Position numbers and translations under genes: made by a program
Notes under the pieces: generated by a model
The model's database searches: none
The model's input: only the letters and a program-made list of their open reading frames with translations
Told to the model about the DNA's origin: nothing
Shown: in pieces, positions 4,090 to 22,800 of the stretch
Layout of the letters: every line of letters begins with the position of its first letter
Position numbering within the stretch: the first letter of the stretch is position 1
Source: a virus
Lineage: Duplodnaviria; Caudoviricetes
DNA length: 64,000 nucleotides
Virus record (IMG/VR): IMGVR_UViG_3300012984_000010
Reading direction: 5' to 3' (one strand)

Positions 4090-4746
4090 TCAACGGCTGT
4101 AGTCGTAATCATCGGCATAGCGGCTGCCCCCGCTGTTCTTCAGAAGATCAATCAAAGTGGCGGCTTGACGGATCGACAGTTTGCGAAGATCGTCTCGCGT
4201 GAACGGCCACTTCAAATCAGGGAACATCTTGGCGTAGGGTGCCCACTGTTCTGCACTACGAATCCTTGAAGTGAGGAACCCCAAATATTTGAGCTGAGGA
4301 TCAGTCGCTCGGGGGCCGCCAGAAGGAACCGGTGCACTGGTGGACGGTTCGGTCGTCTTGGGGGTCTCTGGAGACTTGCTGCCGCTGGCATCCCAGTACT
4401 CAGGCTTTTCCTCATAAGCCTCAATTGCGTCTTCAATGCGGTTCTGAAGAGAGTTTTTCCAGCCCTGCGTTCGCTTGACGATGGGAGCCTTGCCTTTCAT
4501 CAAAGGCCTGTTGGACTTGACACCCATCATCTGCACACGGATCGCGTCTTCCCCCACCCCGGCTCCCATATCGGAGGACTTACGGATTGAGGTCCAAATC
4601 CTCAGATGGACCGCATCACTTAGTTGGAGGTCGTAATAGTACTCCCCTCCATTTGAGTGTCCTTTCTGAGGACGGAGCGCACGGAAGCCCCGCTTGAGAA
4701 AGGTTTCCATGTCTTGGAGAGTGACTTCAGTGTATTGAGCGGCCAT
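4090..4746 (-). CDS. Hypothetical two-domain protein with DUF3072-like small helical C-terminal motif
   Basis: ATDPQLKYLGFL...LSIRQAATLIDLLK after a Pro/Thr linker; TGATG-coupled to the helicase. Confidence 0.65.
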   Translation of the reverse strand: MAAQYTEVTLQDMETFLKRGFRALRPQKGHSNGGEYYYDLQLSDAVHLRIWTSIRKSSDMGAGVGEDAIRVQMMGVKSNRPLMKGKAPIVKRTQGWKNSLQNRIEDAIEAYEEKPEYWDASGSKSPETPKTTEPSTSAPVPSGGPRATDPQLKYLGFLTSRIRSAEQWAPYAKMFPDLKWPFTRDDLRKLSIRQAATLIDLLKNSGGSRYADDYDYSR

Positions 4747-7700: not shown

Positions 7701-7937
7701 GTGGGTGGGCGAGGGCAAGTGATTGTCAAGGTAAGACTTGATCGAATCTAACGAATGATCGGCCAGACGAAGGATGGTGACCCCTTTCCGGATCGTATCC
7801 CCTTCCAACTGGTCTTGGCCCGTCGTTTCCTCCGAATACCTCAGATAGGTATCCAGTGCGAACAGAAAGATCAAATACTCGGCTACTTGGAATTCGCCAA
7901 TCAGCTCGTCTTCGCTCGTTTCAGCCCAACGTTCCAT
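4746..7937 (-). CDS. UvrD/PcrA/Rep-family SF1 helicase with about 270-aa N-terminal extension
   Basis: Q motif LDDEQRAA, Walker A AGAGSGKT, GTMHS, Walker B IIVDEAQD, VGDDKQ, NYRC, LTRTN, TCHSTKG, EDERRLAYVAITRA. Confidence 0.92.
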   Translation of the reverse strand: MERWAETSEDELIGEFQVAEYLIFLFALDTYLRYSEETTGQDQLEGDTIRKGVTILRLADHSLDSIKSYLDNHLPSPTHKMMLNRAINISISTANGVARRALQFRTLLSRGGPSTMKGIFDTTKYIRQVREAISASMLEDADRALDIFAALPMRNTRMRAWIDLAAKVAGSGEAAPSAVDAGSREAGETSTELVIHQVQQIAASGADESLKSQEAQAELLDTVEREATNAARRSLEINSQSDEPPTRSEVVGVAVAAATAAMSDPSKPQNIPTPLRRLDDEQRAAALTDGKVRVAAGAGSGKTSTVVARVEYLIKERRVLPSRILVTSFNNKASEELKERLGKAVGGESLQQMSVGTMHSLFKRFIGEYGTNAEKVTMGQLKNGPNGFIGDGKKIGYAVQNIWEDCYGKQKPIPKLQSVLLLKAQWAGNHVTPLEAAAKARSSSERDAALWYEMYEGLKGSIPGWKPVCHSKSYESFMTKVRPNNIPLGDFSDMLSTFLKILKREPRVQITIQKMYDHIIVDEAQDRNSVMKEVLDLCAGHVTDGSDGKSYWVVGDDKQAINSFQGARSELFINMGEEDGWKTRSIRTNYRCEPELVDAANKLIAHNKGQIEMESVPNPQKVRGSGSIQVVTPMDEAGAALGVVEGIKQNLVLGANVTDHAVLTRTNKELHAYETACIIRGVPYARKGASSFLGSPETTALLGYVQLVTGSDFTKMQKALGNAINKPRRFFLTDPKKAPEAVEAALSAYARQRDVDVKSINPMTALQDRSFVRHLVDALAKLTRSGKAFKFEEKIEDLAQSLQEMKALTTDPDYTTKNLFDDILGLKGTGIVGGAFVEQSFRESLQADLKNSTSADDDEAVDEDDEEDSTQGLGNISFLYQLALPDPTDEDDELNPPTTPMGFKQKMERYASKMKDLRTDITKWYKEQSALPPEKRSPPPGVYLGTCHSTKGAQWPTVFVAMPAGKFPMVPIVKPGEEPPPPEEVEQKLEDERRLAYVAITRAAKNLTIVCPSSVGGKAGGVSEFVYEAGLNLGQNIKPAEPNEKQAFDVSNVDWQPHDGMDA

Positions 7938-8073: not shown

Positions 8074-11000
8074 TCAGATGCGAGCTCTGAGGTAGAACGT
8101 CATCTGGATGTACAAGAGCGGGAAGATTGGCTGGTACCAAGCTTCGAAGTCCATAACCGTCGGGTCGATGGGGTTGATGGTGGCCGAGATCCCCATCCAA
8201 CCACCGACGATCTCAGCTTGAACCAACTGCTTGAACAGGGCCGTCATCGAGACCTCAACCTCACTAGTGCGGCTAGCGAGGAACTTGGTACCGATGAAGC
8301 TGTCCAGAGCTACGCGGCTTTGCTGCTGAACGTAGTCGCCAATCTGAGTGACGGTCGGCAGACGCTTCAAGATGTCCGACATATCGGTCGTCAAACCTTG
8401 GCGGATACGGATCAAAGGATCCAAGTCCTCCAAGAGAGTGATGCCAGCGACCGCCGTTTGATTGGCCGTAATCGGATCCAAAATCCGAGGAATACGGGTG
8501 AACCCTTGGATGCGACGACGGGTGTAGGGAGTCGCCACATCGACGGCTGGTGAACAAGCCGCGCCCGCAATAGCGGCCGCGATGAACGAACCATCCACCA
8601 AAGTCTCGTAGCTGGCACCCAACTGATCCGAAAGCGTGATGACCGCACTGTCGGGGTAGAAAGCCATCATACGCTTCGAGAGCAAGCTCCTGGCCACCGA
8701 TTGAGCAGTGGTTGGAGTGGTGCCCGACGAGAACCCGACGAAGCCCATGCGTTCTGACTGGTTGCGCTCATTAGACTGAATTTCACAGTGCTGCATGAGG
8801 GCCGCGAAAACCGTGCTGCTTCCCGTTAGAGGCACCAACACATCCGGCTTGACGTTACCAGGCAGAGGGATCGAAAGCTCACTGATCGCTTCAATGAAGT
8901 CTTGATCGCTAGCTTGATTGGTGTTTTGAACCTTCAGCACCTGCTTGATACCCACCAACACGGCTCCGTTGAGGATCATCAGGTAGGCACCCAACGTTAC
9001 CTTGTTCTCAGCCGAGAGAGGCCCGAAATTGGCCTCCACAGTCTTGAACTGTTGATAAAGTTTGGTCGAAAAGTCCTGCTTCCTGAAATTGTAGGTGACG
9101 AAGTAGAAGTCGCCTATCGCTGGTTCCAGTCCAGAAGGATTGAAAGTGTTGACAGTAGCGGTGTCGTTCACCCCAATACCAACCGTGTCGGTAACCACCG
9201 TTTCCAAACCTGGAAGCGACAAGTACGGAACTGCTGGATTGACCTTCCAGGTTGGGGACACTTCCAAGGTAAAGAAGCCTGAAGAAGTGTAGCTGCCGTC
9301 TGTGGCAGGCAGTACGGTGAAACGTAGCCCCGTCCTTGCATCTGTGTAGGTCTGACCTGGGATACCAGAACCAGCCGAACCGCTTGCATTGTTCGAGCTG
9401 ACAGTGAACTTGTCCTGAGCATCAGCACCATTGTCACCGCTAGTTCCTGGAACGATTCCAGTTCCAGTAGTGGGGTTGAAGGCCGAGGCCGAACCACTGA
9501 CAAATACGATGCTTGATGTTGCAGCACCGACCGTCAGAGACTCAATGGTCACATACTGTGAGCCATTGATGGTGCTGACGTACGCCACACCGCGGGCCGA
9601 GAAGCCTGAGGTAGCGTTTAGGGCATCCACCACCTCAGAAGCCGCAACTAGTGTTTGGCTAGCTGTCGCATCATCAAGGAAGCCCAACACATCGTTGGCC
9701 GAACCATCCAACATCACAATGCTGGAGCTTGGATCCGCCACTGTGCTGGTTAGACGAATCTTGTTCAGGTTGCCCAAAGTACCCGCTGAAGCAACACCTG
9801 TCAAACCAGGGGTGCTGTTGATGGCGGTCACCACTGAAGAAGCCGTAACCGCGGCACCTGCTGGCAAGGTCGTGGTGTAGTCGATTCCGTTTAGACGGAA
9901 GGTCAACACATCGTTGACACCAGAGGTGATGTTGAACGGCCCTGCAATACCACCCAACATGGTGGCTGGCTTGTTGGTGGCTGTGGGAGTGCCTTGAGCC
10001 GATTGGAAGGTGCTGAATCCAAGCACATTCTCGACCGTACCTTGACGAATCGCCACAGTAGATGCGTTATCAAAACCACCAGGCAGTGCGCCAGGAGTAG
10101 TGTACGATTTGATAACGAAGAACACATCACCGTTTGTACCGTTCACCTGAACAAAACTTGCCAAGGTGTTGGGAGCGGTGCCGCTGAAAGCGCCGTTGGC
10201 ATCAATCGCTGCATTGATTTCACCAACAATTTGTGTTGGTGTTCTAGCGCCAGCCGTCAATGTCACCGCCACATTCACGCCATCGACCGTAATGTTGAAA
10301 ACATTGGCGGGAGAGGCTGGAATGGTGATCGAATTCGATCCGCTGGTGGGGGTTCTGGCTGACACCAAGTAAGCCGGCACAGCTGTGGTCAAGTTGGTAA
10401 CTAGGGCGTTACCATTGATGGTGGTTCTCCAGTTATTGCTGTAGGTCTGGAAGAACGAGTAAGGAGCTGCTCCTAGGTTGGTATAGATGGCATTTTCGGC
10501 CAAAGTAGACCCAAACGTCACAGTGACTGTTTCAGCAACAGGAGTGCCGGCGCCCGTGTGGAAGCCGTCCGTCACTTGTTCTGAACCGCGAGGCCATTGA
10601 ACAATCTCAGAAAGGCCAGACTTGGTTCCGAAGCGAACCTGATAAAGGTTCTTGCCTGTTGTGGTATCAAGCACTTCGAACTGACCCGTACCAACCGGAC
10701 CCGTCACCTTGTTGGTCAGGATGAACGTGTCATCCGTCAAACGGCTGTACCAGAAAGTCGCATACGCCTTGTGATCCGGGGGAACAGGGTTCTTGAGAGT
10801 GATCTTGCGATTCTCCCCATCAACCACCGTCACCACCGCCGCCGCACGGCCCAGCGCATCTACCAAATCTCGGCCAGTGTGAACCGTCACCAAGTCAGGA
10901 CGATTGGTATCCAGACCATTGCGGCCGTTCGATACTGCACCATAGACCGTTGCCCCAAGGGGCGTGTCACGTCCGTTACCTGTGGTCGGCACCTCAGGTA

Positions 11001-12339
11001 GGAGGAATTGGTTCGAAGACACCAAAGCAGGGATGACCGTCGTATCCACGACACGTGTGGCTTCCACCGAGAAGAGACGATCATCCACCAAGGTGGGGAG
11101 GATCTGAACCTCATTGAAGGGGGTAGTGCCACTGGTGTGTTGAGCCGAAGAAACAACGAAGCTGCTGCCCCAGTGGATGATCGACACGTCCGGGCTCGGA
11201 TTCGAGACCACGAAGTCTTGGCCTTGAATGTAGTCGTTACGACCTGCCGCGAAACCGCAACGGATCACGTCCGTCACCAGTGTGTTGGGCAAGTAGTCGA
11301 ATGTGTCCTGCCAGGTGTTGGCGAAGTAGGTCAATTTCACCGTCGACCCAGCTGCTGGAGCGAAAGGCAGGGTGACCAAACCGTTCGTACCGTCGACAGC
11401 CGACACCACCACTTGGACATTGTTGACCACCGCCACAACCTTAGTCGGGTCTGTGGTGGTGATACCGCCGTCCGTACCGTCTACGATTGGACGCTGAAAT
11501 ACGCGGAAGGTAGCGTTACGGTTCGTGTTCGTGTTGGGCGAGAAACCCAGCACACCGTTCGCGTTACCACCACCGATCGACAATGAGCGGGCAGCTGTGA
11601 AGGTGAGGTGGTCACGTCCCTGACCGTCAGTCGAAACCGACACAGCCAAGCCTGACACGGCCGCAGCATCGATCACACTCTTGAGGCCAACGGCTGTGTA
11701 GCTACCTGCCCCAAAGACCAACGTCTTGGGCGTACCATCTACCGAGAACACGAAAGTATCGGTCAAACCAGTCACAACCTGGAAAGGAGCGTAACCTGGT
11801 GTGGTCAATGACGCGGCTACTGTGGTTACCTGGTTCGACACATCATCCGTGAAACTCGTGTCCGAACGATGGAACCAATAGGTGCAACGAACGTTGTCTC
11901 CTGGTTGGGGCGGGATCTGGAGAAACACCGATCCACTTGCACCCTGAACCGACCCTACCGCTACTGGGACGCCGTTGATCGTCACCGAGAGGGTCTTGAT
12001 GTCGTTAGAGATCTTCCCAATCCCTTGCCCCGTCACAATGGGAGCGTTTCTGACGATGAACTGTGTTGATGTCCCATTCGCCAAACCCAAGATAGGGTGG
12101 TTGGGGTTCGAGTCATCCACAACGAAGCTGGCGCTCACATCCTCATTGATGATCTGCTGATCCAGTCCTGCGCTAGAACCACGCACCAATTCGTAATCGG
12201 ATTGAGTCAATTCCTCTTGACCCACCCCAACTTCCACTGGGATCTTAAGACCAACTACCAGATTTGCAGCATTGGCATCCGACAATGTACGGGTGTAGAC
12301 GCCAGGGGGAACGTAAGTTGAGTAGGGGCCGATCGCCAT
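8074..12339 (-). CDS. Contractile tail sheath protein with large insertions
   Basis: 1421 aa; N-terminal YVPPGVYTRT and C-terminal sheath core (IRIRQGLTT...LPTVTQIGDYVQQQ...FIGTKF...FEAWYQPIFPLLYIQMTF). Confidence 0.9.
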   Translation of the reverse strand: MAIGPYSTYVPPGVYTRTLSDANAANLVVGLKIPVEVGVGQEELTQSDYELVRGSSAGLDQQIINEDVSASFVVDDSNPNHPILGLANGTSTQFIVRNAPIVTGQGIGKISNDIKTLSVTINGVPVAVGSVQGASGSVFLQIPPQPGDNVRCTYWFHRSDTSFTDDVSNQVTTVAASLTTPGYAPFQVVTGLTDTFVFSVDGTPKTLVFGAGSYTAVGLKSVIDAAAVSGLAVSVSTDGQGRDHLTFTAARSLSIGGGNANGVLGFSPNTNTNRNATFRVFQRPIVDGTDGGITTTDPTKVVAVVNNVQVVVSAVDGTNGLVTLPFAPAAGSTVKLTYFANTWQDTFDYLPNTLVTDVIRCGFAAGRNDYIQGQDFVVSNPSPDVSIIHWGSSFVVSSAQHTSGTTPFNEVQILPTLVDDRLFSVEATRVVDTTVIPALVSSNQFLLPEVPTTGNGRDTPLGATVYGAVSNGRNGLDTNRPDLVTVHTGRDLVDALGRAAAVVTVVDGENRKITLKNPVPPDHKAYATFWYSRLTDDTFILTNKVTGPVGTGQFEVLDTTTGKNLYQVRFGTKSGLSEIVQWPRGSEQVTDGFHTGAGTPVAETVTVTFGSTLAENAIYTNLGAAPYSFFQTYSNNWRTTINGNALVTNLTTAVPAYLVSARTPTSGSNSITIPASPANVFNITVDGVNVAVTLTAGARTPTQIVGEINAAIDANGAFSGTAPNTLASFVQVNGTNGDVFFVIKSYTTPGALPGGFDNASTVAIRQGTVENVLGFSTFQSAQGTPTATNKPATMLGGIAGPFNITSGVNDVLTFRLNGIDYTTTLPAGAAVTASSVVTAINSTPGLTGVASAGTLGNLNKIRLTSTVADPSSSIVMLDGSANDVLGFLDDATASQTLVAASEVVDALNATSGFSARGVAYVSTINGSQYVTIESLTVGAATSSIVFVSGSASAFNPTTGTGIVPGTSGDNGADAQDKFTVSSNNASGSAGSGIPGQTYTDARTGLRFTVLPATDGSYTSSGFFTLEVSPTWKVNPAVPYLSLPGLETVVTDTVGIGVNDTATVNTFNPSGLEPAIGDFYFVTYNFRKQDFSTKLYQQFKTVEANFGPLSAENKVTLGAYLMILNGAVLVGIKQVLKVQNTNQASDQDFIEAISELSIPLPGNVKPDVLVPLTGSSTVFAALMQHCEIQSNERNQSERMGFVGFSSGTTPTTAQSVARSLLSKRMMAFYPDSAVITLSDQLGASYETLVDGSFIAAAIAGAACSPAVDVATPYTRRRIQGFTRIPRILDPITANQTAVAGITLLEDLDPLIRIRQGLTTDMSDILKRLPTVTQIGDYVQQQSRVALDSFIGTKFLASRTSEVEVSMTALFKQLVQAEIVGGWMGISATINPIDPTVMDFEAWYQPIFPLLYIQMTFYLRARI

Positions 12340-12450
12340 AAAGCCTCGAATTGATTAGGGTTTTTGTTTTTACATCATATCTAGGGGCGCTTTGGGTCTA
12401 AATCTCAATCTGGTTCTACCTAGAACGTGGAAACAAGAGGAGTAGTGAGG

Positions 12451-12870
12451 TCACTCGTCTTTTTGTTTGGCCTGAATGGTTCTCACCTCTTGAGCCAAAT
12501 TCTTACGACGTTCGATCAGTTCGGGAGTACCGCCCTCGTAATCGATGAAGTCTTTACCATTCTTTCGAATCAAAGCGTGGGTCCCCACCTGTTTCCTGAC
12601 CTTGGACTTGACCACTTCCCTAGCAGCTTGATCCTTCCACCTGGACTCAGCATCAACTCCTACCACCCTGTCAGCTGTTGGATAATCGTGCTTCGATACT
12701 CCTGAATTGGCAGGTGACTTGCCTCCTTTGGCGAAATCAAACCCAAAGGTTTCCCAAAGTCTAGGGGCCTCAGCTCCACAAGCAGGGCACTCATGAGTCG
12801 CATGGTCCCCCATCTTTAGGGTGCGGGTGAATTGTGTGCTACAGGCACATTCAAAACTGAACTTAGGCAT
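12451..12870 (-). CDS. FmdB-like zinc-ribbon protein
   Basis: MPKFSFECAC...HECPACG pattern. Confidence 0.65.
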   Translation of the reverse strand: MPKFSFECACSTQFTRTLKMGDHATHECPACGAEAPRLWETFGFDFAKGGKSPANSGVSKHDYPTADRVVGVDAESRWKDQAAREVVKSKVRKQVGTHALIRKNGKDFIDYEGGTPELIERRKNLAQEVRTIQAKQKDE

Positions 12871-14009
12871 CAGCCGATCCTCTCATAATCATCATCTCTT
12901 CTCTGAAGAATAGGGTGTGTTCTGAACAACACGTCGGAAGCAACAGGAGTGATACCTCCGGAATTAATCTTGCTAATCACCAATGGAAGCGGCACGTGCA
13001 CTTCCCAATCAGCTCTCAATTGCAGCGACATAGAGGCTTGGTAGAAGAAGTTCTCTCCCGTCTCATCTGCTATTTCCTCAGCCTCGCTGCCCATCGAGAC
13101 ATCTAAGATCTCGATTCCTTCGAATTCCAATTGACTCTTCTTGTCAGCCAACAGATACATGGTGGTCAGATCTGCGATCTCCTCCATCTGCATCGGATCC
13201 CTGGCAATCACATCGAAGTCAAAACTGACTTCGAACTTCCCGCCGTACGCCTCGGCAGCATCGATTCGATCCTGGTAGACCACCACCGCCACCTTCTGTT
13301 TTGGGGCGGACCTTTTCCCAAAAGCCAACACTACCCCTGGAAGAGTGGTCCAATTGGCTTGATTCCACTGAAACGCCACTGGCCCTATCGATTCTCCTGC
13401 CCACCTATAGTCCGCCGACACCTGTGTGTTGGCTGGCAAGATGGTGATGAAGGTAACCCTACCGGTATCGTAATCTACCGTATAGTCCAACCCCTCTTTG
13501 AGAAAGAAAGAGTTGTTGGCATAGAGCCGCAACGTATTCTGAAGCGGCAGGTTTTCCAATTGAGCGTCTACTGTCATGCCCGCTCTAGTGACGATCAAGG
13601 GACGATCGATTACCGTATACATAGGATCGATGACGAAGAAGCCGTCTTCACCGTTGACCGTAGGAGCAGTCAGGATCTCCATCAAATAGACCCCAGGAGG
13701 AGTGGGCATCCCCCCATTCTTGGTCACTACCCTAGAATCCTCTCTTACCCATTCCAAAGGATACTCAGGTTGCCCCACATAGGCCAACATTACATGGCTT
13801 TGAACAGTGCCCACGTAGTTGTCCGCCGCCAGCTGCACCTTATTGGTACTGGACCCCTTGATGACGATCCCGAATTGAGGACGTTCCTCAAACGAGAATC
13901 GGTTCTGAATGAACGGAACGATCTTGTTGTAGACAGGATGATTCGAAAAGCTGTCCTTCAGTTCAAGGATGACTCGCCGCTTCAGGGGTCCTACCAAGTT
14001 GTAGTACAC
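12870..14009 (-). CDS. Probable tail terminator/completion protein with beta-sandwich insert
   Basis: 379 aa between neck and sheath; EGLDYTVDYDTGRVTF insert; terminator-like SMSLQLRADWE C-terminus; largely synteny. Confidence 0.55.
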   Translation of the reverse strand: MYYNLVGPLKRRVILELKDSFSNHPVYNKIVPFIQNRFSFEERPQFGIVIKGSSTNKVQLAADNYVGTVQSHVMLAYVGQPEYPLEWVREDSRVVTKNGGMPTPPGVYLMEILTAPTVNGEDGFFVIDPMYTVIDRPLIVTRAGMTVDAQLENLPLQNTLRLYANNSFFLKEGLDYTVDYDTGRVTFITILPANTQVSADYRWAGESIGPVAFQWNQANWTTLPGVVLAFGKRSAPKQKVAVVVYQDRIDAAEAYGGKFEVSFDFDVIARDPMQMEEIADLTTMYLLADKKSQLEFEGIEILDVSMGSEAEEIADETGENFFYQASMSLQLRADWEVHVPLPLVISKINSGGITPVASDVLFRTHPILQRRDDDYERIG

Positions 14010-14023
14010 TGGCCCACTCTCCC

Positions 14024-15076
14024 TTACTTATCTGATTCGTGTTCTTCAGAGGCGAGTACCAGCATGCCCTCCGCCACAGCGGTCATCGGATCCTTGGCGA
14101 GACGGATCTCGCTAATCTGGATCGGGAAGCGCTTCTTGTGAGATTCGAACTCTTCCTTGAAAATATCGAGGAAGCCGCCCGCTTTGGTGGTGCCGCCAGA
14201 AACGACAAACGGAATTGGGTCTGGTAGAGCGATGTCGTTCTTCACCTTCTTGAACTGTGCCGCCACATTCTGAAGGGTGTAGTCAATCAGGCTCCTGACG
14301 TAGAGAACGATCGCTTGTTCTTCACGACCATTGGGTTTACGGAGGTCGATCCCCTTCTCTTTGATGGTGCACATCTGAGAAGCTGTCTTTCCAAGCGCCT
14401 TGGCCGATTGAGCGTCAATCCAGTCACCACCTCGCGCTAGAGCGAAATCCAAGGCCTTGTTGGCCTGGTAGGACAGGGCAATGTTCGCCATACCCGCACC
14501 GAAACTGACCGCCAAGCCGGAGAAGTTCTCCTCGGCACACTGGCTGTAGATGATTGCCATGGCTTCATTCATCGGATGGGCGTGGTAGCCGAAGTCTCGG
14601 ACGATCTTACGGAAGACTTCTGTGTGGAAAATCACGTCCTGAGAGGGGTCGTCGATCGGGGCCGCTGGCACGCTGTAGAAGCAGTGCTCACCGTCTTCCT
14701 GGGGATCGCCCAGCACTTGATTGATCAGCAGCCCCAACACCTCTTGAGCGTCGATTTCGCCAGCGGCAATCAAGCCTCGGCTGAGGGGCCGTCGAGCCTC
14801 ACGCTTGAACAGATTGGCCATCGTCAATGCCGAATCACCCAGCACCAACAAGGCTCCATCTGTCTCACGTTCCACGTAGTCGACTTTGGACATTTTCAAG
14901 CTACGCTTTGCAGCTAGTTCTAAGTCCAAAAAGGCGTCACGCACTCGCTTGGTCACCACGCCACCATCTTTCGATCTGGCGGAAACGATGTTCATGGTAC
15001 CAATGTCCAGACCGACACCTAGACTGACAGATTTACCTTCATCTTTTTTCATGTGTTTTACCTTTGGTTTTTTCAA
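14024..15076 (-). CDS. Actin-like ATPase (MreB/ParM superfamily); ATG at 15052 is a likely alternative start
   Basis: Phosphate-1 GLDIGT, connect-1 PMNEAMA, phosphate-2 VSFGAGMANIA, adenosine VVSGGT, connect-2 DPMTAVAEG in canonical order. Confidence 0.85.
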   Translation of the reverse strand: MKKPKVKHMKKDEGKSVSLGVGLDIGTMNIVSARSKDGGVVTKRVRDAFLDLELAAKRSLKMSKVDYVERETDGALLVLGDSALTMANLFKREARRPLSRGLIAAGEIDAQEVLGLLINQVLGDPQEDGEHCFYSVPAAPIDDPSQDVIFHTEVFRKIVRDFGYHAHPMNEAMAIIYSQCAEENFSGLAVSFGAGMANIALSYQANKALDFALARGGDWIDAQSAKALGKTASQMCTIKEKGIDLRKPNGREEQAIVLYVRSLIDYTLQNVAAQFKKVKNDIALPDPIPFVVSGGTTKAGGFLDIFKEEFESHKKRFPIQISEIRLAKDPMTAVAEGMLVLASEEHESDK

Positions 15077-15720
15077 CGGAAATCGTAGGTCTCCGTTTGA
15101 GAACGTTGCTTGAGCAGATAGACGAAGGTCTCGTGCTTATCTGCAATGTCTTCCAACAGTTTGCTGATACCGTGACTCAGAGTACCGGCTGCCTTCATGG
15201 TGGCAATCAGTTGAGAAATGGCAGTCACACACGTGGCCTCGGCCCCCAGACTGATGCGAACCATGTCCTCGGGAGATTTGACCGGTCCCAACGCAACCAA
15301 CAAGTCCGCCATAACGGTCGCTTGTTCGAATGCAGTGATGGTGGTTGAATCTCCCGACCCAATGATCCGTTCAGCCAATTGGTCAATAAGTTCGAGAGAC
15401 TCGTTGTAGAGTCTCTCGAAAAGCAAGTGGTCCCCACTGAAGCTAACCCCTGAGGTGCTCCAGTGATGAGTTTGATGAAGCAAAGCCAACGCCTGAAGCA
15501 TGGCCAACATCGAAAGCATCGTCCCCCCACCAGCCATCTTGACCGCCGAGGTCCTGACGATCTGTTTGACTTCGAGTCTTTGATCCTTACCAAGCTTTAC
15601 AGCCTCATAGGATTTTGGCAGATAGGGAGGGCCGTGCCGCAAATGATCGAATTGCGTAGGTTCGTGCCAGACTACACGAATGTTCTCCTGATGGGGGTCT
15701 TGTGCAATTCGCTTCAGCAT
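15073..15720 (-). CDS. dps: Dps/ferritin-like protein with N-terminal extension
   Basis: HHWSTSGVSFSGDHLLFERLY...IDQLAERI and HETFVYLL match the Dps bundle and ferroxidase ligands. Confidence 0.8.
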   Translation of the reverse strand: MLKRIAQDPHQENIRVVWHEPTQFDHLRHGPPYLPKSYEAVKLGKDQRLEVKQIVRTSAVKMAGGGTMLSMLAMLQALALLHQTHHWSTSGVSFSGDHLLFERLYNESLELIDQLAERIIGSGDSTTITAFEQATVMADLLVALGPVKSPEDMVRISLGAEATCVTAISQLIATMKAAGTLSHGISKLLEDIADKHETFVYLLKQRSQTETYDFR

Positions 15721-15755
15721 AGGCTTACCCTAGGCTGATCGAATCAAAAGAAGAA

Positions 15756-16358
15756 TCACTTCTTCTTGCCGCCACCACGTAGTTGACGGAGCTTAGAAGC
15801 TGGTCCAGAGACATCCCCATCACTAACTTGCTCAGTGATTTGGATTCTGGCCTCCCCCAAGTCCTGACTCAGGTCTGGGAGAAACATGGGGGCCTCCCCA
15901 CCCACCGCTTCGCTTACTGGACCAGTATTCTGACTTGCCGGCACATAACCCCCAGGTCCAGATACTTGTTGCACAATAGTCGTGGTTGGGGCGGCTTCTA
16001 TGCGCCCCAAAGCAGACAGGACGTTGGTCATCTGTTGCTGGAGATTGGCCATCCCCGAATGTAGGTCTGAGTTGACCTTATTGGCCCGTTCCAGAGCCTC
16101 TTTGAGGCGAGCGTTCTCTAGTTCCAGCTGGGCCATTCTCTCAATATCCACGGCAGACTCCACTGGTTGACGTACGGTCACCGTGTCTAGTTTAAAAACG
16201 ATCCCAGAATTGATGGCTCGATGAAGGTCTCTCGATCTGAGGTAGTCCTCCATCTTTATGAAGATCTGCTCTCGATGGGGGATATCGACCTTGATGTCTG
16301 GTACAAAGTGCCCACCCATAGTCAGACACACGACTGAAACTCCGCCTGAATCGCTCAT
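15756..16358 (-). CDS. Hypothetical coiled-coil protein
   Basis: 200 aa, central heptad region LELENARLKEALE. Confidence 0.65.
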   Translation of the reverse strand: MSDSGGVSVVCLTMGGHFVPDIKVDIPHREQIFIKMEDYLRSRDLHRAINSGIVFKLDTVTVRQPVESAVDIERMAQLELENARLKEALERANKVNSDLHSGMANLQQQMTNVLSALGRIEAAPTTTIVQQVSGPGGYVPASQNTGPVSEAVGGEAPMFLPDLSQDLGEARIQITEQVSDGDVSGPASKLRQLRGGGKKK

Positions 16359-16359
16359 T

Positions 16360-16857
16360 TTATCTCTTTAGGGTATCTTGTAGGGTTTTCTGGAGCGCTC
16401 TCACCAGACGTCTCTTGATGACGGTTCGAGCAGCATCTCTCGCTTTGTCGATAATATGGGTAGATTCTCGTCGAGGGTGATACCATCGACCCCTAGCCAT
16501 CGATCTGGGGGTGGCGGACCTAAAGATCAGTTCTCCTGTATCGAGGATGATTGGAATGGGCCGCCTAGCCTTGGTCAGCCAAGTCATTTGTTCCCTCTTG
16601 CGCCCCTCCAACAAGGGGAAGAAAGCGGGGTGAGTGGCGGTCACTATGAGGCTGCTCTCGTAGATTCTGGTCTTCAGACCCTTCTTCAAAGCCCTCTTGG
16701 CTCTAGGGGAAAAGGCGTATTCCTCAATCTCTCGTCGTATTTCTTCGAGGATTTGACGTTGAAGGGACTTCAATACCTTCTTGGGCTCAAACTTATCGAG
16801 TGCTCCTTTGGGTACCAAGGGCTTGTAATTGATACGTATTTTGGGTAGAGCGATCAT
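16360..16857 (-). CDS. Probable neck/tail-completion protein (HK97 gp10-like)
   Basis: 165 aa, very basic, coupled to the neck gene; synteny. Confidence 0.45.
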   Translation of the reverse strand: MIALPKIRINYKPLVPKGALDKFEPKKVLKSLQRQILEEIRREIEEYAFSPRAKRALKKGLKTRIYESSLIVTATHPAFFPLLEGRKREQMTWLTKARRPIPIILDTGELIFRSATPRSMARGRWYHPRRESTHIIDKARDAARTVIKRRLVRALQKTLQDTLKR

Positions 16858-18212
16858 CAGTAAACGATGTTAACCCATGTTTTGGTGCGGCCTTTTAGTT
16901 CCCGTTCATCCGGAATCTCAGGCTTATCAGTGATCTGAGCGGGAGAGTTTAGAGGAGGCACCAGTTCAGCCGCCTGGTTGGGCAAGAAGCGATTCGGCCC
17001 GTCAATCGGAACTCTGTACTGGATCATCTTCTCGTCCAGATGACCTATGTTGAAATGTTGTTGTAGCAACATACCTCGGTTGGAGGGCATCCTGACTGGA
17101 CCTATACTGTATCGCTCACCGTTGATCTTGACGATGAAGTCTCGCTGAGAAAGCAACGGACTGGATGTCGTCCAGACCTCGTACGAGTGCTCTACTGTGC
17201 GGCCTGTGTCTCGCTGACCTATCTTCCGTTCCGCATCGTCAGGGGCGAGGATGATGTCGTACGGCCCTTCATACCCGCCTATGACGCCCACCCCATAGCA
17301 GATGGTACAGTCACTTACAGGTTGGTGATGGGTGAGGGTATTGAAGCAAGGGCAAACAGGCCCAACCTGCTTCCGAATGAAAACTTTGACCCGCTCCCCA
17401 CCCTGGTCAAGAATCCACCGATTCCGACGAACCGCTTCCCGCCACACCCAATCCACCTTCTCTAATTCGAAGGTGCTGGTGAGAGTGGCTCGGGCAAGTT
17501 GCGTCTCCAACAGCTCATGAGGATCTGCTGGGCCAGCAAGTGTGCTAAGCATCGTCCCCACGGTGGTGACACGATAGAAGATACGCTGACTCAGGTCTGT
17601 TCTAACGAAAGACCTGTTGTACCGATAGGAGACCGTCACCACACTGTCAGGGCCTGGAACGATCCCAGGGTCCATCAGCTGAGTGGTGACGTTTGGATAG
17701 GGATTGGGGTCTATCTCCACCTCCCACGTCTCACCCGTCACTCGGGCCACTCGGGCCACCATCCCATCAATTCTCACCTCAACGTCAGAGGGTGTGTTGG
17801 CGGGGATGTTTTGAGAACCCTCCTTGACGATCGGGCCAAAACTAGTCCTAAAGACGTATCGAGGAGCGTTTCTTTGCGCGGCTACCGCATCCCCAAACAT
17901 TACCCAATCGGTAACCTGCTCATCCTGAACCAACACATTGTTGGTCTGATCTCGCCAAAACGTGCCGCCCAGAGGATAGGGGTTGATCCTATCGTAGGGG
18001 CCAAATTCGGAGTCAAAGCTCCGATAAATGTTGACCCCACAGATCTGGAAATTACTGTTGACCGAAAGTTGGGAAGGGTCCGTCCAAGATAGGTCTACCA
18101 CCCCCGGCTGATACCCACTCGTCATGAAAAGGTTGAGAGGTGCCGCGGGTTCAGCAACTTTCACCAATTCGAGTGTAGGCGGATCGCGGTCTCGATTTGA
18201 AGCGTAAGGCAT
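16857..18212 (-). CDS. Neck/head-closure protein with N-terminal Fn3-like domain and Zn-finger (start revised to ATG 18212)
   Basis: VDLSWTDP...GVNIYRS (Fn3-like); RWILDQGGERVKVF...CPCF...CTICYGVGVIGGY; SD GAGG precedes 18212. Confidence 0.6.
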   Translation of the reverse strand: MPYASNRDRDPPTLELVKVAEPAAPLNLFMTSGYQPGVVDLSWTDPSQLSVNSNFQICGVNIYRSFDSEFGPYDRINPYPLGGTFWRDQTNNVLVQDEQVTDWVMFGDAVAAQRNAPRYVFRTSFGPIVKEGSQNIPANTPSDVEVRIDGMVARVARVTGETWEVEIDPNPYPNVTTQLMDPGIVPGPDSVVTVSYRYNRSFVRTDLSQRIFYRVTTVGTMLSTLAGPADPHELLETQLARATLTSTFELEKVDWVWREAVRRNRWILDQGGERVKVFIRKQVGPVCPCFNTLTHHQPVSDCTICYGVGVIGGYEGPYDIILAPDDAERKIGQRDTGRTVEHSYEVWTTSSPLLSQRDFIVKINGERYSIGPVRMPSNRGMLLQQHFNIGHLDEKMIQYRVPIDGPNRFLPNQAAELVPPLNSPAQITDKPEIPDERELKGRTKTWVNIVY

Positions 18213-18241
18213 GGCTGAATGGCACCTCTCCATTCAGCCAT
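18211..18241 (-). promoter_or_regulatory. Perfect 12-bp hairpin covering the RBS and start codon of the neck gene
   Basis: ATGGCTGAATGG-AGAGGTG-CCATTCAGCCAT; SD in the loop, AUG at the stem base. Confidence 0.65.
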
Positions 18242-18253
18242 CTGATAAAAAAA

Positions 18254-18544
18254 TCAGGTCTTCGGGGGACTAGCGGTCGTCTGAATCACCAACAGTTTGC
18301 CAGTCTTGGCATCTATCTCGGCAATCGTATTGCTGCTCAGCCCACGATCAATCAAGCATTTCTCGAAAAGTCGAGTGCGTTGATCGTCAACCTTTCGGGC
18401 CGCCGCCAACAACTGGATCCGTTCTTGCTCCAGCGACAGCAAGTTGTCGGCAATCCCTGCTCTAGCCTCCTGCAAACTACGCAATTCCTCCAAAGTAGAA
18501 GGTTCTACAGGGTCCTCTGTCGTCAGATTCTTCTTAGTTGTCAT
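18254..18544 (-). CDS. Small coiled-coil hypothetical protein
   Basis: 96 aa, helical, operonic. Confidence 0.65.
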   Translation of the reverse strand: MTTKKNLTTEDPVEPSTLEELRSLQEARAGIADNLLSLEQERIQLLAAARKVDDQRTRLFEKCLIDRGLSSNTIAEIDAKTGKLLVIQTTASPPKT

Positions 18545-18824
18545 AGGCTCTCTTTGATTTGAGGCGGCCGTCCGAGTATTGTTTGTTCAGTTCTCGCAAA
18601 CAATCCTCGAACAGGCCTTGAGGTATACCATGTTTCTCAATGAGGCGCCGACGATTGCGGTCCTCACCTTCATTTGGGCAAACCTGTACATGGCGATAGT
18701 GGCGCCGCTTACATATTTCACACTGACCCAATTGATCCTGCCACACAGTGCAGTCCTTGTGGTGAGCTGCCAACACTCTAAAAGAGGAGAACACCTGACC
18801 ACAAGCACACGTCTTGATGTCCAT
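18534..18824 (-). CDS. Small zinc-finger protein
   Basis: CACGQVFSSFRVLAAHHKDC (C2H2-like) and CEICKRRHYRHVQVC. Confidence 0.6.
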   Translation of the reverse strand: MDIKTCACGQVFSSFRVLAAHHKDCTVWQDQLGQCEICKRRHYRHVQVCPNEGEDRNRRRLIEKHGIPQGLFEDCLRELNKQYSDGRLKSKRAYDN

Positions 18825-18903
18825 GGCCGGTAACTTACACCAGCCCCACCTCAGCTAGAAGGCATTCGCCTTATGAAGCGAATTACATCTAAAGTGTAAT
18901 AGT

Positions 18904-19794
18904 TCAGAATCCGACGAACTTTCGTGGGCTCAACACACCTGATCCCACATACGGCCCAAACGAGCTCCGAATACCGATCCCGTATCGGGGCTGCTGCAAA
19001 CCTTTGATGATCTTGACCGTCGCCTTAGCTTTCTCAAGTTGGCTGTCAAAGGAGTCTTTGACATCCTGGGAGAGTTGTTGGTATTTGGACGATTTCTCCA
19101 GATCTAGAGAGATTCCTCCAATACTGTAGCCAAACTCATCTGCCACCCAATTGATCGCAACTGCCCGCAAGGCGTACATCATCGCCCCATTGATCACCAA
19201 GGTTCGCCAGTCAGGGTAGTCTCGAAACAGGGCGTCAAAAGAAGGAATGGGGGTACGGGGAGGGGCAGCCGACACCATGTCGAGAGAGCGGAGCAAGTAT
19301 TCAGCCAGTTCCTCATCTTCCCAAATGTAGCCGAACACTCGATTTAACTGAGTGATCGTCTCCTCATGGGCAGGCGGTCGAAAGTGGTAATTTCGGTCAG
19401 GGTTGTTGTCCCTGAGAAGGATCCGAAGACTCCTCACCAACGCGATCTCTGAACAGGGGACGATCACCATCGGTCCGGCCGCCCCGTCGATGACGTTGAA
19501 TTCTTGCACCACCTGATGAATCTTACCCCCCGCCACTTCCCTGAATACCCAGCGAATTCGGTAATCTCCGATACGAGCGTCTTTGGGGATCACGATACTG
19601 GCATAGTAATGTCCGACCGAATCGTTGGCCGGATCTCTGCGGGGTACTCCCAGCAACACTTCTTTGCCAGTGGTCAGGTCGTATAGAGCGTAGGATATTT
19701 CAGCCGCATTGATAGGGTAGTCCGACGCATTTGCTAGGCAAATGTCAAGGTCCTTGGAACCCAATTGCTGACCCTTGTAAAATGCTACCGACAT
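18904..19794 (-). CDS. Probable head-tail adaptor (neck) with N-terminal Ig-like domain
   Basis: 296 aa; helical C-half ending YSIGGISLDLEKSSKYQQL typical of adaptor/neck proteins; SD AAGGAG. Confidence 0.6.
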   Translation of the reverse strand: MSVAFYKGQQLGSKDLDICLANASDYPINAAEISYALYDLTTGKEVLLGVPRRDPANDSVGHYYASIVIPKDARIGDYRIRWVFREVAGGKIHQVVQEFNVIDGAAGPMVIVPCSEIALVRSLRILLRDNNPDRNYHFRPPAHEETITQLNRVFGYIWEDEELAEYLLRSLDMVSAAPPRTPIPSFDALFRDYPDWRTLVINGAMMYALRAVAINWVADEFGYSIGGISLDLEKSSKYQQLSQDVKDSFDSQLEKAKATVKIIKGLQQPRYGIGIRSSFGPYVGSGVLSPRKFVGF

Positions 19795-19832
19795 CTCTAC
19801 TCCTTAAGACCACCTAATCAATGAAAGCGCCA

Positions 19833-22800
19833 TCATTCCCAACCATACTTGTTGACTCTAGGCGGAAAACCCCCATTGGGATTCAACGCCAAAGCATCCA
19901 AAACCAGGAATCGTTGGTCCACCGTCTGGATAGGTGATTGAGCCGAATCTTGGATTTCCCATCTGATCAACCATTCGCCTGGTTGACCGTGTTCACCCGC
20001 CAAACCTATGACGTAGAACTCCCCTACAGCCCCATTGACAGCTTTCTGACGCCCTCCTACCATCATAGGGGCCCCAGACTTAGAAATCTGGTAGAGCCGG
20101 TAATAGACCGCCGCCGGCCCATACGGACCCGTCGCATCTGAAGTCCTGATACAGAGGTCCCCACGCTGAAGTTGCTGCATGTACCGGAAGCGTTTGACAG
20201 CGTTAGTATCCGCCGAGATGCTGGGACCGACCCCATTGTTAAGGATTCTGACGATCGTGTCGTCGAACACCGTAATCCCATCATCTTCGACGATTGAGAA
20301 ATTGGATTCGGTGAAGATGACGATCTGATCCGAAACCTCAAGGTCATCCAAAAAGTTAAGGAAGGTCTCGATAGCAGCCTCAGCTCCATCCAGACAGCTG
20401 ATAGAGTCCGGCTGAGTGTCTCTGACGTACTGGGTCTCCGCTAGCAAGACCTCAGAGATGTCCAAGGCGTCAAAAGCTGACCTACGGTACGAAGTTTCGG
20501 CCAACAGCGCGTCAGAGACGCTGATGGGGGCGTCTTCAACAACTGTCCCCCGCTCATTCTCAACGATCAACTGCTCAGTGGTGTCGATCAAATCCGTAGC
20601 GATGCTTCGGATGTAGTCGGTAGACGGGATCAGCTGTTCAGCTAGCTGGATGCTGTCTTGAAGTACTTTGACGTATTCAGACGCCAGGGTGCACTGGTCC
20701 AGACAGCTGATGACGTCATTGTTTGACCGGTTCTGGTCCAAACTTACGGCACGGCTATCCACAACGAAGATTGTGTCCAGAATCGTCTTTTCGTAGACCG
20801 AGGAGATTGAGCTCTGGTCTGAAACAACGATCGCATCAGAAACAGGGCGAACATAGCTGGTGTCTGGAACCAACTGCTCGGACACTGTCACTGAATCAAC
20901 CAGGAATCGGCCGAACTCTAGCGAGAGTGTATTTTGATCTGTGGCCTGAATCGTATCAGAGGCGGCCTTTTCAGAAAACAGAGATACAAGGGGAGAATCC
21001 GATAGGGTTACCGCATCCGCAGTCAAGCGGATGTAGTCAGTAGACGGGATCAGTTGATCCGTGATGACTGCGGAATCGGCAACGAATACCGACAAGCCTT
21101 GGAACAGATCAACAATGGAGGAGTCGGTGAGGGAAATCGAATCCGACAGTAGGCGGCCGTACTCCAAACTACGCAAGAAGGAGTCAGAGGTGCTGATTGT
21201 GTCGGAAGCCGAACGATCTTTATCAATGCTTGGGATCGTCTGATCCGCCAAAACTATCGAATCGATCGGATTTCTACCGTACTCAAACCCCAACAGGAAA
21301 CTGTCAGCGGTCGTCACAGAATCTGAAAGAGCCAGGGCCTTCTCTAGACCGGCCGTTACAGCATCTGAGACACTGATCGTGTCTGAGCTGGTAGATTGAA
21401 CATCAACAACAGTCGAGTCCAAAATGGCCAGCGAATCAGATATTGTCAGAGAGTAGACGGACGAAAGGAGCGTCTGATCTGTGACAACGATCGAGTCGTT
21501 AAAGAATAGGTCCGTCGCCTGGCTAGCTGTGGCTGAGACGTCATCCAGGATCTGGAGAGTATCGGCCAAATACCTCTGGTATTGAGAAGACAGGACCAAC
21601 GAATCAGAGACGAGAATCGCATCTTGGGGGAAGGTTTTCTCCCTAAGGGTCTGATCCGATACTTGGATCGTGTCGCTAGCCAGCACCCCAATCTCAAGGC
21701 TCGTGCTCTGACTGTCGACGAGCGTCACCACGTCCGAAATGAACGTCTTTTCTACGAGCAGTTGCTCTGAAGTTAGGATTGAATCTGTGAGGGTGCGGTT
21801 GAACGTAACCTCTGTGCTGCCTTGGTCCGTAGCCGCCAACGTATCCGACAAACTCTTGGCGTATTCGGATGAGGTGCTGGTCAGATCAGTGACCGTAATA
21901 CTGTCATTTAGGAACAGGTCTATCGATTGGCTGGTAGTAGCCGAGACATCATCGATAATCGACAATGCGTCAGAAGCCGTCAGGCTGTAGACGGAAGACA
22001 GGGTGGTCTGATCTGTGACTGAAACTGTGTCTTGAGGGAACGTTTTCTCTCTAAGAGTCTGATCTGTAATAAGGATCGAATCAGACGTGCTGACCCCGTA
22101 CTCGATGCTGGTAGCAGAAGTGTCCAGGATCGAGATGACATCCGTTAGAGCGGACTCAATTTCAGGGAATGCGAAGTCAGACGTGACGATTGAATCTTGG
22201 ATTGTCCTATCAAACTGAGAACTAGTCTGAATCGAATCCGACAGGACAATGGCATCCGATCCTATGACACTATACTCTGAGCCAACAATCGTCGAATCGG
22301 TGACAGTAACGCTGTCCTGTGGGAACGTCTTCTCTATGAAAGTCTGTTCTGCAATCGAGCAAGTGTCGGACAGCAGACGGCCGAATTCTGCCGATACCAA
22401 GATCGAATCAGAAGTGCTGATTGTGTCGGAGACCAGTCTGCCGTATTCGATAGACAGCAAGGTCGAGTCAGTCAGGGCCGCACTATCGGTAGATAGTGCG
22501 GTGTCGATCGTCTGGCCGATCGACACATTGTCTGTGACCGTTAGAGTATCGTTGGCAGAACGAGAGTACTCCAAACTGATGACGGCAGTATCCGATACTG
22601 ATACGCTGTCCTGAGGGAACGATGTCTCTCTTTGGATTTGATCGCTGACAGCAATAGAATCCGATCCGGTTCGACCGTATTCGATTGACAGGGCAGCAGA
22701 ATCGGTGAGAGCGATCGAATCCGATACTCCCTTATCTACCTGATTACTCTCAGCGTCTGTGACCGAGACAGTATCCGAAACACTTCTGCCGTATTCTACA

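What the first reader, a model, noticed from the sequence alone, without database searches (positions are those of the whole stretch)
14024..15076. Actin-like ATPase embedded in the neck/tail-completion operon
All five actin-fold motifs are present, but phosphate-2 reads SFGAGMA in place of DxGGGT. Phage cytoskeletal proteins are known (PhuZ tubulin in phiKZ-like phages, AlpC in Corynebacterium prophage CGP3), but this one is coupled to Dps and sits between neck and tail-terminator genes. It could be a filament moving capsids or tails, a tail-joining ATPase or a virion component (inference).
Basis: partly seen in the sequence, partly recalled or inferred. Interest (0 to 1): 0.75.

Follow-up and report, generated by a model that had tools for sequence, protein, structure and literature searches.

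The report
Huge-phage actin gene with adaptor
A giant soil bacteriophage (about 0.47 Mb) carries, between its neck and tail-terminator genes, an intact actin-type protein of the "volactin" family and a small coiled-coil partner; hundreds of related huge phages share the pair, so these viruses probably build their own actin filaments late in infection, which I found in no paper.

Summary
The minus-strand ORF 14024-15076 (probable ATG at 15055, 343 aa) encodes a full actin fold with all five motifs. It is a full-length member of Pfam Volactin (PF25216, 248 bits against a cut-off of 35). The AF2 model has pLDDT 95, and its best structural match is the MamK filament.

The odd phosphate-2 motif (SFGAGMxN in place of DxGGGTxE) is not special to this phage. 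It is the signature of the whole family, cellular members included.

The gene is about as conserved as the portal. At least 574 IMG/VR contigs, up to 619 kb, carry a relative. Its position is fixed: a 200-aa coiled-coil partner lies upstream in 64 of 69 loci and a tail terminator downstream in 71 of 78. Dps lies between them in only 36 of 69.

The cultured relative Tunturi 5 has the same connector/neck/terminator/sheath module without this cassette.

In relatives, inteins sit at five or more sites in the ATP-binding loops.

The partner ends in a short basic motif. The same motif ends the proteins encoded just upstream of cellular volactin genes in Planctomycetota.

Best reading: a phage actin filament plus adaptor acting in late virion assembly. 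This is inferred; polymerisation was not tested. Other agents of this scan reached the same family assignment on at least seven other genomes. I found no paper describing it.

The parts
14024..15076 (-). Volactin-family actin gene (350 codons from TTG; probable ATG start at 15055 gives 343 aa)
   Evidence: ORF. PF25216, 248 bits, full length. AF2 pLDDT 95.4. MamK filament Z 28.5, rmsd 3.0 over 294 residues. Start-site context.
15756..16358 (-). 200-aa partner (candidate adaptor): N-terminal domain, coiled-coil-like middle, PMFLPD motif, basic C-terminal ASKLRQLRGGGKKK
   Evidence: Alignment A4. A homologue lies upstream of the actin in 64 of 69 IMG/VR loci. C-terminal motif in 66 of 71 partners against 7 of 576 other ORFs. 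A similar C-terminus ends the upstream genes of cellular volactins. Binding to the actin was not tested here.
15073..15720 (-). Dps/ferritin-like protein with an N-terminal extension, between partner and actin
   Evidence: PF00210 E = 1.4e-10; phrog_3636 E = 8.7e-13. Present between partner and actin in only 36 of 69 related loci, and absent in LR745208.
12870..14009 (-). 379-aa tail terminator / sheath-stabiliser homologue; starts 14 nt after the actin stop
   Evidence: blastp to Tunturi 5 gp324 'tail terminator', 6e-16. phrog_123 E = 0.003. Atlas leads: SP10_terminator, Phage_tail_terminator_9, T4-gp15_tss. Downstream of the actin in 71 of 78 loci.
16857..18233 (-). 458-aa neck / head-closure-like structural protein
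   Evidence: blastp to Tunturi 5 gp322, 3e-31. Model pLDDT 71. BFVD hits: phage G gp175 at 2e-14, 'head closure knob', 'neck protein'. Weak PDB leads to Pam3, phage 812 and T4 gp13/14 necks.
16360..16857 (-). 165-aa conserved protein of unknown role between the neck gene and the partner
   Evidence: Homologues at the same place in L002-L004, L008 and L090. No family hit.
12451..12870 (-). 139-aa zinc-ribbon protein
   Evidence: PF09723, 1.2e-6. Same place in relatives. Weak match to Tunturi 5 gp325.
8074..12339 (-). 1421-aa tail sheath homologue
   Evidence: blastp to Tunturi 5 gp326 'tail sheath', 5e-63 and 7e-61.
18904..19794 (-). 296-aa head-tail connector homologue
   Evidence: blastp to Tunturi 5 gp319 'head-tail connector protein', 1e-39.

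Best explanation
The gene encodes a phage actin of the Volactin family.

Inferred mechanism: late in infection it is made together with the neck, tail-terminator and sheath proteins. It binds ATP and assembles into filaments. The upstream 200-aa protein acts as its adaptor. In this model the adaptor dimerises through its coiled-coil-like middle, holds the filament with its conserved PMF(I/L)P motif and basic C-terminal helix, and holds a cargo with its N-terminal domain.

Because the cassette sits inside the head-tail joining genes, the likeliest cargo is a virion part (filled heads or finished tails). The filament would then position or bring together very large particles that diffuse slowly, much as PhuZ tubulin carries capsids in Chimalliviridae.

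What is shown: fold, family, intact nucleotide-binding residues, strong conservation, fixed gene neighbourhood, and the partner motif shared with cellular systems.

What is inferred: polymerisation (about 0.65), the adaptor role of the partner (about 0.5), and a role in virion assembly or transport (about 0.3).
For: Family and fold:
- PF25216 full length, 248 bits.
- Model pLDDT 95.4.
- Best structural matches are filament-forming actins: MamK filament Z 28.5, BeeR filament 27.0, MreB about 25.5. A profile search of PDB sequences gives MamK 2e-14, BeeR 6e-10, MreB 2e-7.
- The founding member of the family, H. volcanii volactin, forms dynamic filaments in vivo (PMC10869688).

Active site: D24, G26, T27, E171, G193, G195, D218, D221, K239, E240, G294 and G295 are 94-100% conserved.

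Selection:
- 54% identity to the LR745208 copy, against 53% for the portal.
- It is the best conserved gene of its block.
- Inteins with homing endonucleases sit at five or more sites inside phosphate-2 and GGDWID in relatives.

Spread: at least 574 IMG/VR contigs, up to 619 kb. One copy each in LR745208 and LR756511. No Pfam Tubulin match in either record.

Neighbourhood:
- Partner upstream in 64 of 69 loci, terminator downstream in 71 of 78.
- The same order holds at 42-56% identity.
- Tunturi 5 has the module without the cassette.

Partner: the C-terminal motif occurs in 66 of 71 partners against 7 of 576 other ORFs. Proteins encoded just upstream of cellular volactin genes end in NLAKLKKLKGGG or similar.
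Against: - No polymerisation or binding data exist for any phage member.
- The family lacks the phosphate-2 Asp and the acidic residue two turns on (S191, N198). Mutations at these positions in MreB and MamK are reported to impair ATP hydrolysis (my recollection, not checked here), so turnover may be slow or work differently.
- At fold level DnaK also scores Z 24.4, so structure alone does not prove a polymer.
- I could not read the H. volcanii VolA sequence itself. That it shares the motif rests on the family profile and on one very acidic, probably haloarchaeal member, P0195.
- The cargo is guessed from gene position only.
- A late-operon position does not prove late expression. The promoter and terminator scans were at chance level.
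Confidence: 0.55

Rival explanations
1. A ParM/AlpC-like DNA-positioning system. The filament moves or anchors phage DNA or the replication or packaging site, with Dps and/or the partner as the link to DNA.
For: A Dps-like DNA-binding protein is encoded directly upstream here and in 36 of 69 relatives. Other family members are fused to HTH_ParB (P0154, P0156, P0163) or, according to the Atlas, to HU. Salactin and AlpC are actins that act on DNA (PMC10869688 discussion; PMC4446434).
Against: No iterated centromere-like repeats lie near the cassette. Dps is missing in about half of the relatives, and the partner has no recognised DNA-binding domain. The cassette lies among neck and tail genes, not replication or partition genes. 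The HTH_ParB fusions are cellular genes in other branches.
Confidence: 0.15
2. A non-polymerising actin-fold ATPase that acts as an assembly factor or chaperone for the neck / tail-terminator junction.
For: The gene lies between neck and terminator genes, 14 nt from the latter. The phosphate-2 Asp is missing. Hsp70 and EutJ folds also match.
Against: There is no substrate-binding domain. The nearest sequence and structure relatives are all polymers: MamK, BeeR, MreB, FtsA. Volactin forms filaments. The same family with a similar partner also occurs in cells that have no virions to assemble.
Confidence: 0.15
3. A host-cytoskeleton mimic. The phage actin and partner co-assemble with, cap or compete for the host's own volactin system, to change cell shape or block division.
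For: Cellular volactin genes are common in Planctomycetota, and the Atlas lists Acidobacteriota as the commonest phylum of the nearest clusters. Phage and cellular partners share the C-terminal motif. The nearest cultured relative infects an acidobacterium.
Against: The phage clade is deep and separate from the cellular clade, at 40-45% identity, so this is not a recent capture. The host is unknown. Late structural linkage is odd for a takeover function.
Confidence: 0.1
4. A virion component or ejected protein.
For: The gene lies inside the structural gene block.
Against: No structural role is known for an actin fold in any virion. The same system exists in cells.
Confidence: 0.05

Closest known systems
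Volactin (VolA, HVO_2015) of Haloferax volcanii; Pfam PF25216
   Same: Same Pfam family, matched over its full length. The Atlas cluster of archaeal volactins superposes at TM 0.89-0.90. The family-wide motifs SFGAGMxN, RGGDWID and KE are shared.
   Different: This one is encoded by a huge phage inside virion-assembly genes. The phage clade is separate from the cellular clade. VolA acts in the rod-to-disk shape change, which does not apply here. Filament formation is shown for VolA only.
MamK (magnetosome actin), PDB 5ljv/5jyg
   Same: Best solved-structure match (Z 28.5, rmsd 3.0 over 294 residues; profile E = 2e-14). Same domain layout and the same connect-1 Glu.
   Different: 16-19% identity. 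MamK has VDIGAGTTD where this protein has VSFGAGMAN. There is no magnetosome context.
PhuZ tubulin of nucleus-forming jumbo phages (Chimalliviridae)
   Same: A phage-encoded cytoskeletal polymer in very large phages. It carries capsids and positions structures (PMC13282480), which is the role proposed here by analogy.
   Different: PhuZ has the tubulin fold and binds GTP; this protein has the actin fold and binds ATP. It belongs to an unrelated phage lineage. No tubulin gene was found in two whole relatives of the present phage.
AlpC/AlpA of Corynebacterium prophage CGP3, and ParM/ParR
   Same: An actin-like filament with a small adaptor encoded beside it, on a mobile element (PMC4446434).
   Different: Those systems act on DNA through a centromere-like site and lie with replication or partition genes. 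Here there are no repeats, the neighbours are structural genes, and the actin family is different.

Membership tests
Volactin (Pfam PF25216) | Full-length match to the family profile above the curated cut-off | tested here: met
   248.3 bits against a cut-off of 35, profile positions 3-321 of 321, E = 1.7e-73. The same result came from the DNA search.
Volactin (Pfam PF25216) | Family signature residues: phosphate-2 S-F-G-A/G-G-M-x-N, R-G-G-D-W-I-D, and the K-E pair | tested here: met
   S191 98%, G193 and G195 100%, M196 84%, N198 99%, D221 100%, K239 and E240 100% in 89 diverse members. Planctomycetota genes read LSFGGGMAN.
Volactin (Pfam PF25216) | Forms dynamic filaments in vivo | not testable with these tools
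   Shown for H. volcanii VolA only (PMC10869688).
Volactin (Pfam PF25216) | Cellular role in shape change (rod to disk) | not testable with these tools
   Cannot apply as such to a phage gene. This concerns function, not membership.
MreB/Mbl (PF06723) | Match to the MreB profile; DxGGGT(T)E phosphate-2; mreC/mreD or rodZ neighbours | tested here: not met
   No PF06723 hit at E <= 1. D165, T170 and E172 of MreB are S, M and N here. The neighbours are virion genes. The shared fold gives Z of about 25.
MamK | MamK-type sequence (VDIGAGTTD) and magnetosome gene context | tested here: not met
   Distant profile match only, 2e-14 at 16-19% identity. The motif differs and there is no magnetosome context.
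ParM/AlpC-type segregation system | Actin plus DNA-binding adaptor plus centromere-like repeats next to the operon | tested here: inconclusive
   A partner gene is present, but it has no recognised DNA-binding domain. No iterons were found in 12000-20000. A Dps-like protein is present in about half of the relatives.
Hsp70 / EutJ-type non-polymerising actin-fold ATPases | Substrate-binding domain (Hsp70), or a closer match to these than to the polymers | tested here: not met
   343 aa with no extra domain. The profile gives EutJ E = 0.002 against MamK 2e-14. DnaK scores Z 24.4, below MamK at 28.5.

The most novel reading that the evidence does not exclude
A large clade of 0.35-0.6 Mb phages builds its own actin cytoskeleton: a volactin-type filament plus a dedicated coiled-coil adaptor. 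It uses this to move or align DNA-filled heads and tails for joining. This would be the first actin-based virion-assembly machine in prokaryotes. It would also be the viral branch of an undescribed two-part actin system found in Planctomycetota and other bacteria.
Probability: 0.3. Interest if true: 0.9.

Novelty: new variant of a known kind. Interest (0 to 1): 0.8.

Why it matters
Phage cytoskeletons are known mainly from PhuZ tubulin in one family of jumbo phages, and from a few ParM/AlpC-like DNA movers. This case differs in several ways:

- An actin of a family named only in 2024 is as conserved as the portal in hundreds of huge soil, sediment and freshwater phages.
- It sits among head-tail joining genes and has its own partner protein.
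- The same actin-plus-partner pair appears on the chromosomes of Planctomycetota, a phylum whose cell biology is unusual.

If the filaments are real, three things follow. It becomes testable how very large virions are organised in a crowded cell. It gives a second, independent origin of a viral cytoskeleton. The phage proteins could also serve as simple models of the volactin family. The family-wide rewiring of the phosphate-2 loop is of interest for how actins hydrolyse ATP.

Tried and rejected
- **Homodimer prediction.** Complex prediction with two copies plus ATP and Mg gave no verdict (score 0.00, controls not run). It counts neither for nor against binding. The single job was then spent, so the partner-actin pair could not be tested.
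- **PDB by single sequence.** No hit. The family profile was needed.
- **PHROGs and NCBIfam.** No family for the actin.
- **PHROGs on distant homologues of the neighbours.** Nothing useful.
- **The search for related loci with the 89-row alignment.** An 8-row alignment worked.
- **H. volcanii VolA motif.** I looked for it in the paper's supplements and did not find it. I could not fetch the sequence.
- **The listing of cluster members.** Gave almost no names.
- **Promoter and terminator scans.** At chance level.
- **Repeat scan.** No centromere-like array.
- **Sequencing runs.** Only soil DNA holders were listed and no RNA holder, so nothing can be said about expression.
- **Planctomycetota loci.** My first crude ORF filter on these high-GC loci lost several genes. 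I replaced it with targeted searches.
- **Saltatorellin.** This MamK-like planctomycetal actin (bioRxiv 10.1101/817700) was considered as a possible name for the cellular clade. I could not link the two without its sequence.

Full report
**What is there.**

The window is bases 25233-89232 of a 142-kb IMG/VR virus record judged about 30% complete. A 100% identical neighbouring protein lies on a 475,623-bp contig. The phage therefore has a genome of roughly 0.47 Mb. The DNA is held by soil metagenomes.

Nearly all large ORFs run on the minus strand. They include a portal (51300-53132), a protease (45327-46874) and a major head protein (42426-43307).

The finding's coordinates are exactly a 350-codon minus-strand ORF. 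Its TTG overlaps the stop of the preceding gene. An ATG at 15055, preceded by AAAGGT, gives 343 aa, like the homologues. The stop is followed by GGGAGAG and the GTG of the next gene, so the genes are packed as one unit.

**Family and fold.**

The protein matches Pfam Volactin (PF25216) over the whole profile: E = 1.7e-73, 248 bits against a cut-off of 35. It matches no PHROG or NCBIfam family.

An AF2 model built on 89 diverse homologues has pLDDT 95.4 and pTM 0.91. By VIA-align the best solved matches are:
- the MamK filament, Z 28.5, rmsd 3.0 A over 294 residues
- the BeeR filament, Z 27.0
- MreB, about 25.5
- F-actin, about 25
- DnaK, 24.4

A family profile searched against PDB sequences ranks MamK (2e-14), BeeR (6e-10), MreB (2e-7), FtsA (2e-6) and EutJ (2e-3). 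The nearest relatives are therefore polymer-forming actins. Fold alone cannot prove a polymer.

The founding member of the family, H. volcanii volactin, forms dynamic filaments in vivo (PMC10869688).

**The motif.**

All five actin motifs are present. Aligned to E. coli MreB, the phosphate-1 Asp/Gly/Thr, the connect-1 Glu (E171 = MreB E143), the GGDxxD helix and the adenosine GG are kept. They are 94-100% conserved in the family.

Phosphate-2 reads S191, M196 and N198 where MreB has D165, T170 and E172. This is not a quirk of this phage:
- S is found in 98%, M in 84% and N in 99% of the 89 members.
- Chromosomal genes of Planctomycetota read LSFGGGMAN.
- A very acidic member, probably haloarchaeal, reads ASFGAGMTN.

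The family as a whole has replaced two acidic residues of the catalytic loop. From my recollection of MreB and MamK mutants, this should slow or change ATP hydrolysis. I did not test that.

**Conservation and spread.**

- More than 100 clusters at 66-98% identity lie on contigs up to 466 kb.
- At least 574 IMG/VR contigs encode a relative, on contigs up to 619 kb.
- Only two records of the phage collection hold a relative, both uncultured huge phages (LR745208 at 54%, LR756511 at 30%), with one copy each.
- Against LR745208 the actin is 54% identical, the portal 53% and the major head protein 83%.
- Within its block the actin is the best conserved gene.
- LR756511 has no detectable homologue of this window's head protein or portal and shares no neighbours. 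A second huge-phage lineage therefore carries its own volactin.
- Neither whole record has a Pfam Tubulin match.

**Inteins.**

About twenty representatives of 470-800 aa match in two pieces, split near residues 191-217. The insert carries Intein_splicing with LAGLIDADG or HNH domains.

The junctions show at least five sites: SYG|SGM, |CGAGM, SFGAGM|S...MTN|C and RG|CGDW. Inteins typically home into the most constrained sites of widely shared, important genes. This fits an essential ATP site, by inference.

**Neighbourhood.**

The order is: 458 aa, 165 aa, 200 aa, Dps, actin, 379 aa, Zn-ribbon, 1421 aa. It recurs at 66-87% identity. Without Dps it recurs at 42-56% identity (LR745208, L008, L011, L089, L090).

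The cultured jumbo myophage Tunturi 5 of Tunturiibacter (Acidobacteriota; PMC11924767) has the same module, as annotated in its record:

| Tunturi 5 gene | Annotation | Window protein | blastp E |
|---|---|---|---|
| gp319 | head-tail connector | 296 aa | 1e-39 |
| gp322 | minor tail protein | 458 aa | 3e-31 |
| gp324 | tail terminator | 379 aa | 6e-16 |
| gp325 | not named | Zn-ribbon | 0.003 |
| gp326 | tail sheath | 1421 aa | 5e-63 |

Between gp323 and gp324 Tunturi 5 has no actin, Dps or partner. The cassette is thus an addition to a conserved neck-terminator-sheath module.

A model of the 458-aa protein (pLDDT 71) matches phage G gp175 (2e-14). More weakly it matches 'head closure knob' and neck proteins, and the solved necks of Pam3, phage 812 and T4. 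Atlas leads for the 379-aa protein are tail-terminator families.

**The partner.**

Earlier notes of this scan pointed to a coiled-coil partner, so I examined the 200-aa ORF at 15756-16358. Its homologues share four features:
- an N-terminal domain of about 70 residues
- a Leu/Glu/Gln-rich middle that looks like a coiled coil (read by eye, not computed)
- a P-M-F-(I/L)-P-D motif
- a basic C-terminal helix (here ASKLRQLRGGGKKK)

In 78 IMG/VR loci, a homologue lies upstream of the actin in 64 of 69 with enough flank. Dps lies between them in 36 of 69. The terminator lies downstream in 71 of 78.

The motif L-[KR]-x-[hydrophobic]-[KR] occurs in the last 25 residues of 66 of 71 partners, against 7 of 576 other ORFs of the same loci. 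Since the partners are homologues of one another, this contrast measures conservation of the tail within one family; it is not 71 independent observations.

The cellular volactin genes show the same pattern. In Planctomycetota and in three other bacterial loci, the gene just upstream encodes a longer coiled-coil-rich protein. These are homologous to one another. They end in ...NLAKLKKLKGGG or ...LAKLRAMRGG, in 43 of 73 loci by a strict pattern.

I read this as a conserved actin-binding tail, and the pair as a two-part system shared by phages and cells. That is an inference.

**Phylogeny.**

In a tree of 114 rows rooted on E. coli MreB:
- The query sits in a fully supported huge-phage clade.
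- That clade is next to the LR745208 group, inside a 42-row clade (support 99) with no known cellular member.
- A 27-row clade (support 98) holds the Planctomycetota and Omnitrophota chromosomal genes and the acidic member P0195.

The phage gene is therefore not a recent capture.

The scan of species genomes found 263 relatives. The four closest (53-59% identity) lie on short contigs of MAGs from unrelated phyla. Two of these (L008, L011) carry the phage neighbours, so they are probably mis-binned phage DNA. Nearly all the rest are Planctomycetota genes at 40-45% identity, on contigs up to 7.2 Mb.

**Reading.**

The best explanation is a phage actin filament with an adaptor, made with the neck and tail genes. 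It probably positions or brings together large virion parts.

The rivals are a DNA-positioning system, a non-polymerising assembly ATPase, a mimic of the host's volactin system, and a virion protein. For the DNA-positioning reading, the hints are the Dps neighbour and the HTH_ParB and HU fusions elsewhere in the family. Against it are the lack of repeats and the patchy Dps.

**Literature.**

- Jumbo-phage reviews of 2021 and 2026 and the huge-phage paper of 2020 mention tubulin but no phage actin.
- No paper in the held library joins volactin with phages in a relevant way.
- Other agents of this scan reached the same family assignment on at least seven other genomes.

Noticed in passing
relatives only: P0122, P0123, P0125, P0127, P0128, P0133, P0134, P0166, P0184, P0189, P0207 and others: Inteins with LAGLIDADG or HNH endonucleases interrupt the phage actin genes at five or more different sites, inside the phosphate-2 loop and the GGDWID motif. 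The window's own copy has no intein.
   Followed up: partly
L012-L087 (for example L067 = OZ245838.1, 7.2 Mb chromosome; L022; L082): A Volactin-family actin is a common chromosomal gene of Planctomycetota (263 relatives in the species-genome scan). It is preceded by a coiled-coil protein ending NLAKLKKLKGGG. In L067, and by homology in five other loci, it lies next to a 1015-aa protein with Amidase_3 and Golvesin_C domains. I found no paper that names it.
   Followed up: partly
L092, L093, L094 (cellular metagenome contigs): Other bacteria carry a tandem pair of volactin genes: a plain one of about 335 aa, then one with an N-terminal extension that in P0154, P0156 and P0163 carries an HTH_ParB domain. 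P0169 (Planctomycetota MAG) fuses volactin to Wzz/GNVR and a ParA-like tyrosine-kinase module. The Atlas lists an HU-volactin fusion cluster.
   Followed up: partly
L008 (Actinomycetota MAG), L011 (Legionellales MAG); perhaps also L009 (Thermoplasmata MAG) and L010 (Betaproteobacteria MAG): Short contigs binned into MAGs of unrelated phyla carry the phage-type actin at 53-59% identity. L008 and L011 also carry the phage neck and terminator genes, so they are probably huge-phage DNA binned by mistake.
   Followed up: partly
window 41395-42342 (-): A homing-endonuclease-like ORF (LAGLIDADG and HNH PHROGs) lies directly after the major head protein gene. Relatives also carry GIY-YIG and intein-like ORFs in this block (L002, L003).
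   Followed up: no
window 4746-7937 (-): A 1063-aa UvrD-type helicase (phrog_1967, 3e-86) follows the sheath gene. The same is seen in L004.
   Followed up: no
window 19833-23969 (-): A 1378-aa ORF has a short segment matching the tail-completion / Neck1 family phrog_321 (8e-12). No blastp match to Tunturi 5 gp321 was seen.
   Followed up: no
P0195 and P0191 (one 22.8-kb NCBI contig): Two very acidic volactin paralogues, probably haloarchaeal, lie on the same contig. One is 381 aa and the other is 517 aa with an N-terminal extension, which echoes the bacterial tandem pairs.
   Followed up: no
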